IMG/VR virus record: IMGVR_UViG_3300010883_000017
Coordinates: 9,849-73,848 of that record
Origin: a virus
Direction: 5' to 3' (one strand)
Length of the DNA stretch: 64,000 bases
In this document: positions 311 through 52,130 of the stretch, in pieces
Layout of the letters: each line of letters begins with the position of its first letter
Position numbering within the stretch: position 1 is the first letter of the stretch
Translations under genes and position numbers: made by a program
The notes under the pieces: generated by a model
What the model was told of the DNA's origin: nothing
Database searches by the model: none
What the model saw: only the letters and a program-made list of their open reading frames with translations

Positions 311-902
311 GCGCCCTAAGTCAGCGCGCCTGCATAGCTTGTTACAGGAGTTGGATATCAAATCCTGGGACGTGCTCTTAATAGGGGATGGTTCCGGCAG
401 CGGCTGGGATATCGGGGTTGGTTGGTCGTGCGTAGTGATAGATCGATATACGAAGTCTCGGAAGCTAATACACGGCGGCGGTAGTACAGGAACTGTAAAT
501 ATCGCGGAGCTGATGGCCTACGTGCACGCCATGCTTTGGTACTCTACCCACATAGGCCGTGAGCTGCGCAAGCAATACCCTCGCAAGATTCTCAATATTC
601 ATGTAATCACGGATTCCCGTGTTATTGTGACCCAGGGCAAGAAGGTTGCAGAACGGAACACAGAAGGGCTGGCTAACCGCGCGTTGTGGGCATCCATCAG
701 CGATATCGCCCGCCAGGGTTACACATTCCACTGGCATTGGATCGCGCGGCTCACTAATGAATTGAACTGGGCGGCCGATCAGATGGCAGGCTCAGCCAGA
801 AAAGCTGTAAAAAATTGCATGCTTACTGAGGACGTGCCGGATGAGAACGGCAAGTATACGGGGGTGTCGATATACGACATCAACCCACTAATTAAAAAAT
901 GA
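231..902 (+). CDS. ribonuclease HI-like protein
   Basis: Acidic catalytic set in LIGDGS, NIAEL, ITDS and WAADQMA, plus HWHWI; the true start may be further downstream (~297). Confidence 0.75.
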   Translation: MPTRNFSRSTQNSSQKPRKVKRVKKSKRPKSARLHSLLQELDIKSWDVLLIGDGSGSGWDIGVGWSCVVIDRYTKSRKLIHGGGSTGTVNIAELMAYVHAMLWYSTHIGRELRKQYPRKILNIHVITDSRVIVTQGKKVAERNTEGLANRALWASISDIARQGYTFHWHWIARLTNELNWAADQMAGSARKAVKNCMLTEDVPDENGKYTGVSIYDINPLIKK

Positions 903-906
903 CCAA

Positions 907-1020
907 AGGTTAGCGAAGAATAGCAAAGTGAGGTTGCGGCTAGTTATGCGTGGGTGTGAAATTTCGTGCATTGTTTAGCAAGTGCCCCCGTTATGTAGAA
1001 ATATATACCGGGGGATTTTT
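907..1020 (+). ncRNA. pentamer-periodic guide-like RNA unit U1 (15 pentamers + GAAA hairpin 985-1014)
   Basis: aggtt agcga agaat agcaa agtga ggttg cggct agtta tgcgt gggtg tgaaa tttcg tgcat tgttt agcaa; G at position 2 in 14/15; hairpin followed by ATTTTTAATCCAAG. Confidence 0.8.
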
Positions 1021-1026
1021 AATCCA

Positions 1027-1084
1027 AGTGCAGTGAAGAGAGACTAGAAGTGCAAATCCAAGTAACACAAGGCAAAGTAGGACA
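1027..1084 (+). ncRNA. truncated/degenerate pentamer unit U2 (no terminal hairpin)
   Basis: Follows the ATCCAAG linker; agtgc agtga ... agtaa cacaa ggcaa agtag gacaa with one register slip; runs into the next ATG. Confidence 0.45.
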
Positions 1085-1633
1085 ATGAATATCTGCCATG
1101 AGCACGAGTTCATACTATGGGCACACCCGAGAACCGCAGCGCGTTTTGTATATTCTGCGCTGCGGAACCGCGGAAGCATGGGTCCTCTCACGCATCGAAC
1201 CGGTGTTCCGATAGACGGCGCTGGTTACAGTGTTGTTTGCACGGTGCGCAATCCCTATACGCGAATGCTATCTGCGTGGAAGTGGACGAATGCGGTGGGA
1301 AAGCAGCGGTACTCGCCGGAGAGTTTTACGGAGTTTGTAAGAAAGCACACGCCGTTATGGGGGTTACCGCCGATTTCAAAGGACCTGGGCCACAAGTTGA
1401 AGATGGTCAAATACTTTGTGCGCACAGAGTCGATTGAGAAAGACTTACGCGCACTCCCCTGGGTTCCGGACACACATTCGTTCCCCAAGAATACGTACTG
1501 TAGTAATTATAAGGGCTACACTCCGACCGCTTTGTATGACGAAGAAGCACAAGAGAAAGTTCGCCGGTTGTATTGCGGAGATTTTGCAGAGTTCGGATAC
1601 GATCCAGATGTGATTCCCGCAACGTTTTATTAA
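1085..1633 (+). CDS. sulfotransferase family 2 protein
   Basis: HPRTA (5'PSB-like), VRNPYTRMLSAW (3'PB), C-terminal DFAEFGY. Confidence 0.75.
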   Translation: MNICHEHEFILWAHPRTAARFVYSALRNRGSMGPLTHRTGVPIDGAGYSVVCTVRNPYTRMLSAWKWTNAVGKQRYSPESFTEFVRKHTPLWGLPPISKDLGHKLKMVKYFVRTESIEKDLRALPWVPDTHSFPKNTYCSNYKGYTPTALYDEEAQEKVRRLYCGDFAEFGYDPDVIPATFY

Positions 1634-1646
1634 CGAAAGAAGGACA

Positions 1647-1907
1647 ATGAGAGTAACGGAGATTTCTGTAGAAGTAGGCAGAACTGCCACCATTAATTAC
1701 CAGAGCGCGCGCAACTCAGTTGGTCTTACAGCCACCCTAGCGGCTGATGACCACGCGCCTACCGCGATCCGCTCGTTACAAAAGCAAGCCGTAGATATGC
1801 TTCTAGGTGACAACGAACAATTTCGGGACGCCGAAAATGTGACTTCTGTGGATGCGGAGAGCCTAGATGCGGCTATTCGTGCAGGGGCGGAGTCTCGCGA
1901 ACACTGA
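1647..1907 (+). CDS. hypothetical protein
   Basis: ORF with GAAGGA RBS. Confidence 0.6.
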   Translation: MRVTEISVEVGRTATINYQSARNSVGLTATLAADDHAPTAIRSLQKQAVDMLLGDNEQFRDAENVTSVDAESLDAAIRAGAESREH

Positions 1908-1931
1908 TTTACCGTGGGTAACGGGCAAATA

Positions 1932-2960
1932 CTTTGTTATCCATAACAGGATTTTTGATCTAAGTCGTGCCCCGTAGTGTGGAGAGGATCTAAGAGGACT
2001 ACCGCCGACAACAGGAAGTACGGTATGCATCCTTGGCGTGCAGAAATGTGCGCCAGGGGTTTTTTGATCTAAGGCCAGTCTTGAGGAACGAAGTTCGGGA
2101 AAGTCTCGATGAGTTTACTTGTGTACTGCCAATTTTAGTTCGCAATAGTGATGGAAAGCGGTGCGGATTTTAGCGCGGCGTAGTACAGTGCCCCCGCCAT
2201 GTGGAAACGCGTGGCGGGGGATTTTTGATCCAAGGGAAGAGGCGCAAAGGGGTACCAAGTTGAGCTCCGCATACAAACGCTTAGAACTCGGCAGTACAGC
2301 GAGGGATAGCGCTGCGCAGCGATGCGTAGACTAATGTAAGTAAGCATCCCTGTCGTATGGAAACATGCGCCAGGGATTTTTTGATCTAAGAAATAGCAAA
2401 GCAGCGTACGGGCATGATCACTCATAACAAGTCGAGCGCACTCTAGGTGTGTGCGGTATACAAGAGTAACAGCCCCCGTCATGTAGAAATGTGTGACGGG
2501 GGATTTTTGATCTAAGCCGGGTAGGGTAGAGGGATGCTCGGTAAATACCAGCCGGGACAAGTGTGGCCGTCAAGTGCGGGCTCAGTTAAGTTAGCGCTTC
2601 CGTCGTGCAGAAATGTGTGGCGGGGGATTTTTGATCCTAGGAAAGAGCCGTTGTGGCAAGTGGAGAGGAGCCCAGACCAGCATCGTATAGTAGCGCTCGG
2701 TCAAGCTCGGGATACCTTAGCCCGCGTAATCAGAGATGGTTGCGCGGGTATTTTTGGCCCCGTTCGTCTAGTGGACTAGGACACCGGCTTCTCAAGCCGG
2801 GAACAGGAGTTCAATTCTCCTACGGGGTACATTTTGATCCAAGTGGAGTCGATATTACCGGTGTATAGGGGAGGCTAGTCCTGCAACGAGCAGTTCTGCG
2901 TCGCTCAGATAACCAGACTAGTGGGCCCGGGCGTTCGTTACGGGCGCTCGGGCTCATTTA
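1932..2960 (+). repeat. array of seven pentamer-periodic guide-like RNA units (U3 1963, U4 2072, U5 2233, U6 2389, U7 2515, U8 2639, U9 2842) separated by hairpin + ATTTTTGATCYAAG repeats
   Basis: Hairpins at 2031-2058, 2191-2220, 2348-2375, 2473-2502, 2597-2626 and 2721-2748 (GAAA/GAGA loops) and 2922-2956, with compensatory changes and G-U pairs; intervening tracts have 5-nt periodicity. Not a CRISPR array. Confidence 0.88.
2757..2829 (+). tRNA. tRNA-Glu (anticodon CTC), no encoded CCA
   Basis: Acceptor GCCCCGT/ACGGGGT, anticodon arm CCGGC-TTCTCAA-GCCGG, T arm AGGAG-TTCAATT-CTCCT. Confidence 0.92.
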
Positions 2961-2997
2961 TTACGTGGCAAACTGGGTTCAAATAGGGAATGTAAAT

Positions 2998-4041
2998 ATG
3001 AAAAGCAGGAAGAAAAAAGTTAAGCAAAATACAAAGCGAAACGCGCCGAAAACATCAGTTTTGCGCCGCAAGAATACACGTTTAATGAGCAGGACTTCCG
3101 GAGGACGGCAGTCAGTTGTCGAAGCGCGTCTTGATAAAAAGGCCGATACAATTTTGGCCAAAGCAAAAATCATCAAGATAGCTGCGCAACCAACAAAGGT
3201 GTACCGCACTGTGAAAATTGACGATCTCCAGATCGACAACTCTTATCAGCGTCCGCTGAAAGAAGGTCATATTGCTGACATCATGATGTACTTCAATTGG
3301 GAGGGCTTCGGCACACCAGTTATAGGACGCCGTACTGGTGGCGGGCTATGGTTAATTGACGGGCAGCAGCGGATTACCGCAGCGCAGCGCTTGGGTGCTA
3401 CCAGCGTTGGCGCAGAGATCCGCGATTCTGTAGGGCCCAAATATGAAGCAAGTCTGTTTCATTTGTTGAACTCAACGAGCGTCGTCCCGACGAAGATGCA
3501 GATCTTCCGCGCGGCATTGCGCGCGGGTAATAAGAACGCCGTTGCTATCAATAAAGCAGTTAAAGAGGCGGGATTTCAAATCCATTTGAATGCGGTCAAT
3601 TATAGCGGCAGCGAGTGGCCGTATATTCGAGCACTCAGTCGTTTAGAAAAGCTGTTTAAGTACGGCGGCGTACAATTTCTTACGGAGGTGCTCTCGATAA
3701 TTAGTGAGACGTGGCCGGAAGAAGATGACGCAGTTCGCGAGGACGTTATCGGTGGAATGCACCGGTTTATTCGTTTTACTCGGTACAGTGATCCGCGCCC
3801 CAAGGGCTGGTTGCACGAGCTCATGCCCACAAGGGGGATGACGCGCCGCGATCGTATCGTAGAGGCGATTACGCAGAAGGGTCTGACTGCTGCAGGCTTA
3901 CATAACAAAGCTGCGAACAGCAAGGAATCGGCGTCTGGCTACAGCCGCGCCGAAGCTGTGCAGCGTATCTTGGACGAGACGTGCAGGTTTAATAGCCGCC
4001 GTAGAACGCCTAAAAGTACCGCTGCCGACGACATGGTTTAA
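2998..4041 (+). CDS. ParB/Srx-like N-terminal domain protein (DUF6551-like)
   Basis: LQIDNSYQRPL and LIDGQQR motifs; basic N-terminus. Confidence 0.7.
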   Translation: MKSRKKKVKQNTKRNAPKTSVLRRKNTRLMSRTSGGRQSVVEARLDKKADTILAKAKIIKIAAQPTKVYRTVKIDDLQIDNSYQRPLKEGHIADIMMYFNWEGFGTPVIGRRTGGGLWLIDGQQRITAAQRLGATSVGAEIRDSVGPKYEASLFHLLNSTSVVPTKMQIFRAALRAGNKNAVAINKAVKEAGFQIHLNAVNYSGSEWPYIRALSRLEKLFKYGGVQFLTEVLSIISETWPEEDDAVREDVIGGMHRFIRFTRYSDPRPKGWLHELMPTRGMTRRDRIVEAITQKGLTAAGLHNKAANSKESASGYSRAEAVQRILDETCRFNSRRRTPKSTAADDMV

Positions 4042-4096
4042 TACATGCGTATAAGCCCCCACACACACACTTTGCGTGTGTGCGGGGGTTGTTTAC

Positions 4097-4171
4097 TGCT
4101 CTGTGCTGCTGCGCGATACAAAGCGGAGCTGGGTCAAGCGGAGAAATGCCCGGGCCAGCATAGCAGAGTTT
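4097..4171 (+). ncRNA. pentamer-periodic guide-like RNA unit U10, directly upstream of the Cas7-like gene
   Basis: tgctc tgtgc tgctg cgcga tacaa agcgg agctg ggtca agcgg agaaa tgccc gggcc agcat agcag agttt; G at position 2 in 14/15; preceded by a CCCCC..CGGGGG hairpin (4056-4088). Confidence 0.82.
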
Positions 4172-4203
4172 TTGTTTTTGAAATTAAATGGAGGAATTTG
4201 AGT

Positions 4204-4998
4204 ATGCCAACCACAAAAAAGGCCCCTAAAAAGGCCACTAAAAAGAGAGGCGTTAAAGGAAATATGTCTGCGATGTTAGCAGAGATGCCAGACGACGCGC
4301 TTGCTACCATAGAAAAAGAGGGGGGAGACCTTCTCGACCTGGAGCTTATTGAGTTTCACTGGTTGGAGTGTGAAATCATCGGATCAAGTCCTTTGGTTAC
4401 TAATCGGTTCTCTGATGAGTCTTTGGATGCGATCGAGGGTAATCAGACCCAAGGAGCAACTGGTAAGAAGCTTAAGAAGCCCCCGCGACAACCTGAGAAG
4501 GAGTTTATGCAGGCTGCGCATATATGTAAGGGGAAAGCAGATCCTGCGCACCTTGAGAAGAACATCTATGGATTTCCCGCTGTCGCTTTGAAAAAGGCCA
4601 TGGCTAACGGGAACTACAGATACGGAGGCGCGAAGGATAAGGTGTCGCAGATGGGCGCATTTCATGTGCACGGCCCCTGGCACGGGCTGATCGAGGTGCA
4701 GGGGCTTGATGACAAGCCGTGTATCCCCTCGATGGGACGTGATATGGTCCAGCTTCCTAAGGGGCAGATTGCGTCTATCGCGTATAGACCATACTACTTC
4801 CCGTGGAAGATGAGCGTATTTATCCGGTATTGTCCGACCTTGATGTCCAAGGACGAGCTGATTCACGCCCTGTATATCGCAGGCAATTGCATCGGCATTG
4901 GTTCTTGGCGCACGGAAAAGAGCGGGGACAAGGGCTCGTTCGACGTCGGTGATATCAAGTACCACGGAAAAAACTTCCAAGCACCTCTGTGCTCGTAA
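4204..4998 (+). CDS. stand-alone Cas7/RAMP-like RNA-binding protein (Vipr-like candidate effector)
   Basis: GGAGG RBS; EIIGSSPLV strand, YGFPAVALKKA helix, RPYYFPW, and Gly-rich C-terminal loop AGNCIGIGSWRTEKSGDKGSFDV typical of Cas7-group RAMPs. Confidence 0.75.
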   Translation: MPTTKKAPKKATKKRGVKGNMSAMLAEMPDDALATIEKEGGDLLDLELIEFHWLECEIIGSSPLVTNRFSDESLDAIEGNQTQGATGKKLKKPPRQPEKEFMQAAHICKGKADPAHLEKNIYGFPAVALKKAMANGNYRYGGAKDKVSQMGAFHVHGPWHGLIEVQGLDDKPCIPSMGRDMVQLPKGQIASIAYRPYYFPWKMSVFIRYCPTLMSKDELIHALYIAGNCIGIGSWRTEKSGDKGSFDVGDIKYHGKNFQAPLCS

Positions 4999-5012
4999 AT
5001 AGTTAGTTACGC

Positions 5013-5058
5013 CCCCGGCCTCGTTGATTATGTCAGCGGGGCCGGGGTTATTTTTTTT
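5013..5058 (+). terminator. intrinsic terminator
   Basis: CCCCGGCCTCGTTGA/TCAGCGGGGCCGGGG stem followed by a T8 run. Confidence 0.8.
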
Positions 5059-5077
5059 GGCTTCTGGAGAAACAACA

Positions 5078-5329
5078 ATGTCAGATCCTACTGAAAGCAT
5101 TCGACGAGAAATGGTTGCTCACATTAATAACGAGCCGGCCACACGAGAGCAACTTGAAGAGCAGCACGGACGCGTATGGGATACCGCAGAAATGCAAAAA
5201 GACTTCGAGGTACTTGGTTTCATGGCACCGCTCGTGGTCGTTAAGAGAACCGAAGACGCCGTTCGCGGCGCGTTGGAATTCCAACATGCCCCGCGCTTCT
5301 ATTACGGCTTTACGGAATCACAGGGATAG
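5078..5329 (+). CDS. conserved hypothetical protein
   Basis: GGAG RBS; VWDT..DFEVLGFMAP..LEFQHAPRFYY resembles a small family I recall from Planctomycete genomes. Confidence 0.65.
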   Translation: MSDPTESIRREMVAHINNEPATREQLEEQHGRVWDTAEMQKDFEVLGFMAPLVVVKRTEDAVRGALEFQHAPRFYYGFTESQG

Positions 5330-51383: not shown

Positions 51384-52130
51384 CTCCTTGCTGAAGGGTG
51401 GTGGTGGGGAATCGGAAACCCGTACCCCTCGCCATCACCCACTTTTATACAACTGGCCTCGGAGGGTGTTTCGCCCTCCACGTGAAGAGGTAGTCGGACC
51501 AGGTCCTCACACGACCTCGCTCCGCGACGCCGCGCAGGACTTGGTCCTACGATCGGCATATTGAAAGCATGGAGGCGCCCTGATTCACCTAACAGTGATG
51601 AAGGGCGTCCCTGGTGCTTTCCACCCTACAAGCCCCGGAGAGGTCGCTCCTCCCACGCTCCGAAAGGCGGGCGTCCGGGCAAAGGCCGAGTGGCGGAACT
51701 GGCAGACGCTCAGGACTTAAAATCCTGTGTCCTCACGGACGTGCGGGTTCGAGTCCCGCCTCGGCTACCATAAACCTCCGGAGAGTGTTTCGCTCTCCAC
51801 GTGATGGGGGTTTCCCCGGGCCATCCGCTGGTTTCGCTACGCGAAAACGCAGCTACTGGCCCCGGGGACCAGGTGCGATTGGAGCATAAGGGGTGACGAG
51901 CCACAGCTATCGGGACATTAGTCCCGGGACGCCTAGGGTTCGTTGCCCCTAAATTGCTCCCTCCCATCACACACGAGGTTTCTGCGCAGCTTGTTCGCTG
52001 CGCTCACTGCGCTGCGACGCTGCAGCCGGAGCTGCCGGCCTTCCGCGGCATTCTAAGCATAAGGGACGGCGGAGTGCCGGGGACAGTCTCCTCGCGCATA
52101 AACCGCCGTCCCGGATTGCTTTCTTTCAAT
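51384..52130 (+). ncRNA. candidate large structured ncRNA surrounding tRNA-Leu
   Basis: Continuous succession of long stems, duplicated covarying hairpin, no convincing ORF. Confidence 0.55.
51684..51770 (+). tRNA. tRNA-Leu (anticodon TAA) with encoded CCA
   Basis: GGCCGAG/CTCGGCT acceptor, CAGGA-CTTAAAA-TCCTG, long variable arm, GCGGG-TTCGAGT-CCCGC. Confidence 0.95.

What the first reader, a model, noticed from the sequence alone, without database searches (positions are those of the whole stretch)
4097..4171. Unit U10 independently decodes to GGFPCQPFS, a second C5-MTase variant; NN conserved with U8 while the scaffold diverges
NN: TC GC TG GA AA GG TG CA GG AA CC CC AT AG TT. Reverse complement: AA CT AT GG GG TT CC TG CA CC TT TC CA GC GA = xL(I/M)GG(F/L)P(C/W)(Q/H)P(F/L)S(Q/H)A. 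Over ten aligned pentamers U8 and U10 share 16/20 NN bases but only 16/30 scaffold bases, and the NN differences correspond to natural motif variants (GGPPCQAF vs GGFPCQPF). This is internal evidence that the information is in the NN, and it ties the array physically to the Cas7-like gene.
Basis: partly seen in the sequence, partly recalled or inferred. Interest (0 to 1): 0.92.

Follow-up and report, generated by a model that had tools for sequence, protein, structure and literature searches.

The report
VIPR guide tract against cytosine methyltransferases
U10 is a 15-unit pentamer guide tract of a phage VIPR system (a recently described RNA-guided, wobble-skipping DNA-silencing system), lying just upstream of its Cas7-like gene, and its variable dinucleotides spell the catalytic motif of C5 DNA methyltransferase genes.

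Summary
Positions 4097-4171 are 15 pentamers of the form N-G-Y-N-N (G 14/15, Y 13/15). The reverse-complemented NN read x-L-I-G-G-F-P-C-Q-P-F-S-Q-A. The U8/U10 counts (NN 16/20, scaffold 16/30) reproduce.

In VIPR, a stand-alone RAMP protein (Vipr) polymerises on GGY/NN pentamer RNAs. The NN pair with DNA under a one-nucleotide-skip rule aligned to codon wobble positions.

Support found here:
- Its homologues in independent metagenome contigs sit next to pentamer arrays.
- U10's nine-dinucleotide core with one-base gaps hits at least 113 viral contigs. All hits are in-frame GGFPCQPFS sites of C5-MTases.
- The same dinucleotides with two-base gaps hit once.
- Two bacterial MAGs match 13 of 13 internal units.

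Caveats: U10 lacks the 3' tail hairpin of the other units and lies in the vipr leader, so it may also be, or only be, an autoregulatory site. Expression and binding are untested.

Verdict: new member of a known kind, with methyltransferase motifs as a new target class. This scan's own earlier notes on the same genome had already flagged the array.

The parts
4097..4171 (+). U10: 15 N-G-Y-N-N pentamers (vrRNA-type guide tract). The NN specify C5-MTase motif IV under the 1-nt-skip rule.
   Evidence: periodicity and decode. (in-frame target hits and the 2-nt-skip control). (no special fold, z = -0.02).
4056..4089 (+). 13-bp hairpin (CA/TG-rich stem) followed by a T-rich run. It is the terminator-like end of the ParB-like gene, just 5' of U10. 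It does not belong to the array's tail family.
   Evidence: CA-repeat length polymorphism and 4083 C>T in other samples. Not matched by tail model R1.
4172..4203 (+). T-rich spacer and ribosome-binding site (GGAGG at 4190-4194) between U10 and the vipr start codon. There is no tail hairpin here.
   Evidence: A homologous tail-less arrangement occurs in L004 7857-7934.
4204..4998 (+). vipr: stand-alone Cas7-like RAMP protein of 264 aa, with a Lys-rich disordered N-terminus and the G-loop GIGSWR.
2998..4041 (+). ParB-like DUF6551 protein (alternative start at 2965). It is a candidate VIPR accessory (vap) gene between the array and U10.
   Evidence: Pfam DUF6551, E = 1e-10, plus a weak GmrSD_N hit. 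It is also adjacent to vipr in L006/L007.
2639..2723 (+). U8: 17 pentamers decoding G-N-I-D-[C/W]-D-L-I-I-G-G-P-P-C-Q-A-F, the other C5-MTase motif IV variant.
   Evidence: Its 12-dinucleotide core hits 4 viral contigs, all VDLI[IM]GGPPCQAFS.
907..2950 (+). The vrRNA array. Units are pentamer tracts, each closed by a 13-bp GAAA-loop hairpin, a T-run and GATCYAAG. Two small ORFs (1085-1907) interrupt it.
   Evidence: Tail covariance model R1 finds six tails here and none elsewhere in the window.
2757..2830 (+). tRNA-Glu(CUC) embedded between U8 and U9. It is followed by the same TTTTGATCCAAG junction as the array units.

Best explanation
U10 is a guide tract of a phage-encoded VIPR system. Vipr (4204-4998) is a Cas7-like RAMP. 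It is inferred to polymerise one protomer per pentamer along the RNA, holding the conserved G and pyrimidine of each unit and exposing the two variable bases.

The 15 NN dinucleotides pair with DNA in which every third base is skipped. The recognised site is therefore codon positions 1-2 of ...L-I-G-G-F-P-C-Q-P-F-S-Q-A..., the catalytic motif IV of C5 cytosine DNA methyltransferases. Synonymous changes do not affect recognition, and a gene could escape only by altering its active site.

Binding is expected to block transcription of such methyltransferase genes. The likely targets are the orphan methyltransferases of competing phages, or methyltransferase-led restriction operons.

U8 covers the GGPPCQAF variant and U10 the GGFPCQPF variant of the same motif. 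Unlike U1-U9, U10 has no 3' tail hairpin and sits in the vipr leader, apparently on the same transcript as vipr.

Shown here: the periodic scaffold, the fold and homology of Vipr, the conserved gene-array association, and the in-frame target matches. Inferred only: expression as a guide, Vipr loading without a tail, DNA binding, silencing, and which methyltransferases are the natural targets.
For: (1) Scaffold. G is at position 2 in 14/15 units and Y at position 3 in 13/15, while positions 4-5 carry about 0 bits. Period-5 G enrichment occurs only in the array units and U10.

(3) Natural association. Homologues in independent metagenome and virus contigs lie beside pentamer arrays: L003, L013-L016, L018-L020, L004, L006, L008, L010.

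(4) Protein-RNA covariation. Loci with D/E at the residue equivalent to published D177 (the residue that reads G1) have GG scaffolds. Loci with S/A there, this one included, have A/T at that scaffold position.

(5) Targets. All 113 scorable sites are in-frame GGFPCQPFS, with 95 distinct wobble strings, and 63 sites reach at least 80% NN match to the full guide. The same dinucleotides with 2-nt gaps give 1 hit. The 12-dinucleotide core gives 6 hits in 185,579 species genomes, all in motif IV. Two MAGs match internal units 2-14 perfectly, and the best match is 28/30.

(6) No self-target. The best 1-nt-skip match in the whole 73.8-kb record is 19/30.

(7) Position. L004/L005 (75% identical Vipr) carry a tail-less 10-pentamer tract with different NN at the same place upstream of vipr.

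(8) Transcription hint. Contigs from two metatranscriptome runs of different studies bridge the hairpin, U10 and the start of vipr.

(9) Published mechanism and thresholds.
Against: U10 has no tail. The covariance model of the array's tail finds six tails in the window and five in relatives but nothing at 4000-4300, even at E <= 1. In the SUSP1 clade the tail is treated as needed for Vipr complex formation.

The closer relatives L006/L007 and L008 have no clear tract at this position.

The two terminal dinucleotides (AA and GA) match no natural site found, and no 15/15 target was seen. The 13-dinucleotide core gave 0 hits in viral contigs. Only the seed genome matched at 3 or fewer mismatches among 401 genomes of its class.

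Because motif IV is so conserved, hits to it do not identify the natural target or host.

The RNA evidence comes from assembled contigs that could contain DNA. It shows no processing and no small RNA.
Confidence: 0.72

Rival explanations
1. U10 is mainly a cis-acting Vipr-binding site in the 5' leader of the vipr mRNA. It would serve for autoregulation, or act as an assembly or decoy site, rather than as a trans-acting guide. On this view its methyltransferase-like NN are a relic of an old U8-like guide. This reading can coexist with a guide role.
For: There is no tail. The tract ends 33 nt before the start codon, next to the RBS. RNA-library contigs join U10 to vipr. L004/L005 have a tail-less tract at the same place.
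Against: Scaffold positions 1 and 3 are randomised relative to U8 (7/20), yet the NN still spell an intact, different, naturally occurring motif variant in frame. That requires selection on the NN, and a mere protein-binding site would not impose such selection. L004's tract has quite different NN. There is no match to the phage's own DNA.
Confidence: 0.2
2. U10 is ordinary intergenic sequence, such as a second terminator, an attenuator or an untranslated leader. On this view the motif reading is a coincidence of a flexible decoding scheme.
For: It lies between a terminator hairpin and an RBS and ends in a T-run.
Against: The fold energy equals that of shuffles (z = -0.02). G periodicity has P = 3.6e-7. 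The 24 specified bases of the 12-dinucleotide core match six genomes where about 0.004 chance hits are expected for the stated 596 Gb, and all six lie in motif IV. The 2-nt-skip control gives 1 hit against at least 114. The same architecture recurs beside homologous genes in unrelated samples.
Confidence: 0.03
3. The region is coding, as an N-terminal extension of the protein from the ATG at 4045, which is in frame with 4204-4998.
For: the ORF listing reports an open frame at 4045-4998.
Against: All homologues begin at the methionine aligned with 4204, which is preceded by GGAGG. Contigs from other samples carry +2 and -2 nt changes in the CA repeat at 4059/4060, which would break that frame. 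The 5-nt periodicity is incompatible with coding.
Confidence: 0.01

Closest known systems
VIPR systems, type II (Escherichia phage SUSP1, Pseudomonas fulva prophage): bioRxiv 10.64898/2026.04.26.720920, structures in 10.64898/2026.04.26.720927
   Same: Both are phage-encoded. Both have a stand-alone RAMP protein with pentamer-repeat RNAs in the flanking intergenic regions, including one upstream of vipr. The NN carry the specificity, the 1-nt skip is aligned to wobble positions, and there is no self-targeting. The residues equivalent to R138/W178/R179 are conserved.
   Different: The scaffold here is W-G-Y, not G-G-Y. The G1-reading Asp is replaced by Ser. The tails are simple 13-bp GAAA-loop terminator-like hairpins, whereas the paper reports a pseudoknot tail for SUSP1. 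The array lies upstream and includes a tRNA. The neighbouring gene is ParB-like. U10 itself has no tail. Sequence similarity to the SUSP1 clade is limited to the C-terminal 58 residues.
Alternative-scaffold VIPR types (YNNNG, NNNGG, NNNNG repeats) listed in the same preprint
   Same: The repeat has one conserved G followed by a pyrimidine and variable NN. This is the YNNNG form.
   Different: I could not assign this locus to one of the seven published types, because the type tables and figures are not held. No methyltransferase target, ParB-like accessory gene or tRNA-containing array is mentioned in the texts.
SUSP1 vrRNA4 against the satellite recombinase catalytic core (bioRxiv 10.64898/2026.10.15.759431)
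   Same: The guide is wobble-aligned and covers active-site codons, so escape would require loss of enzyme function.
   Different: That guide targets one gene of one satellite family. U10, U8 and U4 address motifs shared by whole enzyme superfamilies. The 113 scored viral sites carry 95 different wobble strings.
Cas7 backbone of class 1 CRISPR effectors (Csm3, Cmr4, type VII Cas7, Cas7-11)
   Different: Cas7 uses a 6-nt period with five contiguous pairs, whereas VIPR uses a 5-nt period with two. No CRISPR repeats were seen here. None of the nine neighbouring ORFs scanned against Pfam, nor Vipr and the ParB-like protein scanned against PADLOC, matched a Cas family. In VIPR the guide scaffold is read sequence-specifically.

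Membership tests
VIPR (Vipr protein + vrRNA) | Sequence homology to a characterised Vipr clade. | tested here: met
   hhalign of A1 against Felixounavirus dune gp67, which is flanked by canonical GGT-NN arrays, gives prob 95.9%, E = 5.7e-9, but only over 58 C-terminal residues. tblastn gives E = 5e-16 to Gordonia phage ODay gp19, which has an NNGGY array.
VIPR (Vipr protein + vrRNA) | Tandem 5-nt repeats (typically 9-16) with a conserved GGY or related consensus and hypervariable NN. | tested here: met
   U10 has 15 units, with G at position 2 in 14/15 and Y at position 3 in 13/15. Across six tracts position 2 is G in 82/90 and positions 4-5 carry about 0 bits. This is the YNNNG-type variant.
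VIPR (Vipr protein + vrRNA) | A conserved structured 3' tail directly after the repeat tract. | tested here: not met
   This result is for U10 itself. Tail model R1 finds nothing at 4000-4300 and the fold shows no 3' hairpin. The other units of the array do have a conserved tail. The locus therefore qualifies, but U10 is atypical.
VIPR (Vipr protein + vrRNA) | The NN match natural DNA under the 1-nt skip rule at >= 80% NN identity, with skip bases on wobble positions. | tested here: met
   63 of 113 viral sites reach >= 24/30, all in frame. The best matches are 28/30 overall and 13/13 for the internal units. The 2-nt-skip control gives 1 hit.
VIPR (Vipr protein + vrRNA) | No self-targeting at >= 80% NN match. 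| tested here: met
   The best 1-nt-skip score in the 73.8-kb record is 19/30 for U10 and 21/34 for U8. The record is only about 35% complete.
VIPR (Vipr protein + vrRNA) | The vrRNA is expressed as a small RNA of about 100 nt that co-purifies with Vipr. The RNP binds dsDNA and represses transcription. | not testable with these tools
   Only assembled metatranscriptome contigs span U10 and vipr. No read-level, RIP or binding data exist.
Target family: C5 cytosine DNA methyltransferase (Pfam PF00145), motif IV | The decoded sites lie in genes that are bona fide C5-MTases, in frame at the catalytic P-C-Q motif. | tested here: met
   All 113 viral and 6 genomic sites translate to ...GGFPCQPFS.AG.... 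The L138 gene scores PF00145 at E = 2e-95.
CRISPR-Cas class 1 | CRISPR repeat-spacer array, several cas genes, 6-nt guide periodicity. | tested here: not met
   Only pentamer tracts with hairpin tails are present. The neighbouring ORFs have no Cas families in Pfam or PADLOC. The period is 5, not 6.

The most novel reading that the evidence does not exclude
This marine phage may use VIPR for family-level silencing of DNA-modification enzymes rather than of one rival's gene. Three guides address invariant catalytic motifs: U8 and U10 cover two variants of the C5-MTase P-C-Q motif, and U4 covers the N6-MTase N-P-P-F motif.

Any incoming phage, prophage or restriction-modification operon carrying such an enzyme would be shut off whatever its codon usage. 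That would be an epigenetic form of inter-element warfare or anti-restriction.

U10 would in addition be a new guide format: tail-less, embedded in the vipr leader, and so coupling guide supply to Vipr synthesis.
Probability: 0.35. Interest if true: 0.75.

Novelty: new member of a known kind. Interest (0 to 1): 0.55.

Why it matters
VIPR was described only in 2026, and its known natural targets are particular genes of satellites, prophages and rival VIPR loci.

This locus extends the family to an uncultured marine phage with a one-G scaffold. It also shows a matching change in the residue that reads the first G in the published structure, which is an internal check on the published structural code.

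Its guides point at the catalytic motifs of DNA methyltransferases, a target class not mentioned in the three VIPR preprints. This suggests VIPR is also used to disarm DNA-modification or restriction functions across whole enzyme families.

The tail-less tract in the vipr leader raises a testable question: is the tail really needed for loading, or does such a tract serve for autoregulation?

For tool building, natural guides against conserved protein motifs illustrate codon-usage-independent targeting.

Tried and rejected
The contigs of the closest Vipr homologues (P0001-P0004, 94-80% identical) could therefore not be fetched, and no orthologous U10 was available for a substitution analysis of NN against scaffold.

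These searches for relatives found nothing:
- megablast of 900-5100 against phages
- an exact U10 45-mer in viral contigs
- a single-protein locus search
- a tail-motif scan of viral contigs

Target searches that added little:
- The 13-dinucleotide U10 core gave no hit in viral contigs.
- A scan with up to 3 mismatches over 401 genomes of the Marinicella MAG's class hit only the seed genome, with controls at 0.

Ideas considered and dropped:
- A binding site for a TRAP-like ring protein (NAG every 5 nt). I dropped this once the RAMP fold and the VIPR literature were found.
- A synthetic or planted feature. I dropped this because independent metagenome contigs share the architecture and runs from 13 studies hold the stretch.
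- A terminator or attenuator.
- An N-terminal coding extension.

Other negatives and limits:
- No sigma-70-like promoter was found at 800-5200.
- Rfam finds only the two tRNAs.
- PADLOC has no model matching Vipr.
- No C5-MTase gene is present in the phage record.
- Read laying showed no sequence variation inside U10.
- The RNA runs gave no cover over the array at 800-3100. That cannot be interpreted, because standard libraries lose small RNAs.

Full report
**Observation**

Positions 4097-4171 lie in the 162-nt gap between a ParB-like gene (to 4041) and a 264-aa gene (4204-4998). Cut into pentamers from 4097, the stretch gives 15 units of the form N-G-Y-N-N:
- G is at position 2 in 14/15 units (P = 3.6e-7).
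- A pyrimidine is at position 3 in 13/15.
- Positions 4 and 5 have even composition.

The comparison with U8 (2639-2723) also reproduces. NN agree at 16/20 and the scaffold at 16/30. Nine of the scaffold matches are the invariant G, and positions 1 and 3 agree at only 7/20, which is what composition alone predicts. The two tracts therefore share information in the NN and nothing beyond the common scaffold elsewhere.

A scan of the whole window at periods 3-8 on both strands for P-C-Q with four flanking motif criteria returned only U10 and U8 at period 5. Period-5 G enrichment is confined to the array units at 893-2937 and to U10.

**Is it natural?**

The window is part of a 73.8-kb IMG/VR virus record. 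Seawater metagenomes from 13 studies hold near-identical sequence.

The 264-aa protein has homologues down to 33% identity. Independent metagenome and virus contigs carrying these homologues have pentamer arrays next to the gene. The scaffolds vary: TGC-NN, A/T-GC-NN or GG-type. The association of this protein family with 5-nt-periodic tracts is therefore conserved and not an artefact.

**What it is**

A literature search found that this kind of system was described in 2026 as VIPR. In the published account:
- Vipr is a stand-alone RAMP.
- vrRNAs are 9-16 GGY/NN pentamers followed by a structured tail.
- The NN pair with double-stranded DNA under a one-nucleotide-skip rule, and the skipped bases fall on codon wobble positions.
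- Natural targets are called at 80% or more NN match.
- Alternative scaffolds (YNNNG, NNNGG, NNNNG) exist.
- Cryo-EM shows one protomer per repeat. G1 is read by H17/D177, G2 by R138/W178, and Y3 sits in a pocket that includes R179.
- A third preprint shows a guide aligned to the codons of a recombinase active site, which blocks escape by mutation. It treats the tail as what makes a vrRNA competent for Vipr complex formation.

**Membership of this locus**

- The family profile aligns with gp67 of Felixounavirus phage dune at 95.9% probability. That gene is flanked by canonical GGT-NN arrays, as in the SUSP1 locus.
- In that alignment R195, W235 and R236 correspond to R138, W178 and R179. D177 corresponds to S234.
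- Across 14 loci, those with D or E at this residue have GG scaffolds. Those with S or A have A or T at the first scaffold position. This fits the published role of D177 in reading G1.
- Gordonia phage ODay gp19 (tblastn E = 5e-16) is followed by an NNGGY array.

**Targets of U10**

All 113 scorable sites translate in frame to GGFPCQPFS inside C5-methyltransferase motif IV.
- These sites carry 95 different wobble strings, so they are different genes that share only codon positions 1-2. 63 of them reach at least 24/30 against the full guide, and the best reach 27/30.
- The same dinucleotides joined by two wildcards gave one hit.
- In one genome per species, the 12-dinucleotide core gave six hits where about 0.004 are expected by chance. 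All six are in motif IV. A Marinicella MAG and a Burkholderiales MAG match units 2-14 perfectly.
- In the Marinicella contig the methyltransferase (PF00145, E = 2e-95) heads an apparent operon with a DUF2357/PD-(D/E)XK nuclease gene. A block in the first gene could also silence a restriction function.
- U8's 12-dinucleotide core hits four viral contigs, all VDLI[IM]GGPPCQAFS.
- Neither guide matches the phage's own record; the best scores are 19/30 and 21/34. No C5-MTase gene is present in that record.

**What is unusual about U10**

Units U1-U7 end in a conserved 13-bp GAAA-loop hairpin, a T-run and GATCYAAG. U8 and U9 end in other hairpins.

A covariance model of the conserved tail recovers the six window tails and five in relatives, but finds nothing near U10. 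U10 runs straight into a T-rich spacer and the vipr ribosome-binding site. Its predicted fold is no more stable than that of shuffles.

L004/L005 (75% identical Vipr) have a tail-less 10-pentamer tract with different NN at the same place. L006/L007 and L008 do not.

Contigs from two metatranscriptome runs of different studies span the hairpin, U10 and the start of vipr. This is compatible with co-transcription, but the contigs prove neither transcription nor processing. The same contigs carry +2/-2 nt changes in the CA repeat at 4059/4060. That excludes the in-frame ORF from 4045 as coding.

**Interpretation**

I think the most likely reading (about 0.7) is that U10 is a functional VIPR guide tract directed at C5-methyltransferase genes of the GGFPCQPF type and complementing U8.

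The main rival (about 0.2, and not exclusive) is that a tail-less tract in the leader serves mainly as a Vipr-binding autoregulatory site. The intact, distinct, in-frame motif variant, combined with randomised scaffold positions, argues that the NN themselves are under selection.

Chance and coding explanations are excluded by the controls above.

**Context in the array**

- U4 gives A-V-T-A-N-P-P-F-S-I-D-K-W, the N6-methyltransferase catalytic motif.
- U1 gives F-H-T-Y-R-H-S-F, resembling tyrosine-recombinase box II.

I did not run database searches for these. If they hold, the array addresses catalytic motifs of DNA-modification and recombination enzymes in general.

**Novelty**

The kind of system and the wobble-skipping logic are published, so this is a new member of a known kind. 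Not found in the three preprints' texts are:
- methyltransferase motifs as targets;
- paired guides for two variants of one motif;
- a tail-less tract in the vipr leader;
- a ParB-like neighbouring gene;
- a tRNA inside the array;
- the D177-to-Ser/Ala covariation with the scaffold.

**Limits**

No experiment on expression, binding or silencing was possible.

Noticed in passing
window 2757-2830 and 2831-2845: A tRNA-Glu(CUC) gene sits inside the vrRNA array between U8 and U9. It is followed by the same TTTTGATCCAAG junction that follows the tail hairpins. This suggests shared 3'-end formation or processing, possibly by RNase P/Z, of tRNA and guides.
   Followed up: partly
window 2072-2191 (U4): The reverse-complemented NN read A-V-T-A-N-P-P-F-S-I-D-K-W. 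This is the N-P-P-F catalytic motif typical of N6-adenine DNA methyltransferases such as type I HsdM. G is at position 2 in 19/24 units. I reproduced the decode but ran no database search.
   Followed up: partly
window 907-981 (U1) and 2842-2921 (U9): U1 decodes antisense to F-N-I-R-F-H-T-Y-R-H-S-F-I-S-N, which resembles tyrosine-recombinase box II. U9 decodes in the sense direction to G-R-F-G-[I/M]-G-L-P-N-A-S. Only the decodes were reproduced.
   Followed up: partly
Vipr residue S234 (window about 4903-4905); loci L003-L020, L135, L136: The G-loop residue aligned with published D177, which reads G1, is D/E in loci with GG scaffolds and S/A in loci whose scaffold has A/T at that position. This is a protein-RNA covariation across 14 loci.
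   Followed up: partly
window 4056-4089: In other seawater samples the hairpin before U10 shows a CA-dinucleotide repeat length polymorphism (+2/-2 nt at 4059/4060) and a 4083 C>T change. U10 itself is invariant in those samples.
   Followed up: no
L138 578-6500 (uncultured Marinicella MAG): The best cellular match to U10 is a C5-methyltransferase. It is the first gene of an apparent operon with a 756-aa protein (PADLOC PDC-M26A) and a DUF2357 + PD-(D/E)XK nuclease, which looks like a restriction or defence module.
   Followed up: partly
L136 (Gordonia phage ODay 10343-11185) and mycobacteriophages Brocalys, Zizzle and others: Cultured actinophages carry Vipr homologues annotated only as hypothetical proteins. 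ODay gp19 is followed by a canonical NNGGY array of about 200 nt.
   Followed up: partly
window 27992 onward, + strand: At period 7, dinucleotides read V-I-x-G-F-P-C-Q-L-Y-S. This is a third motif-IV-like string and may be chance. No periodic scaffold was checked there.
   Followed up: no
window 51475-51564, - strand: This stretch has G at every fifth base on the minus strand (11 of 12), about 120 nt from tRNA-Leu(UAA) at 51684-51770. No tail-model hit lies there.
   Followed up: no
window 1085-1907: Two small ORFs interrupt the vrRNA array between U1 and the later units. One is weakly sulfotransferase-like (182 aa) and the other is 86 aa.
   Followed up: no
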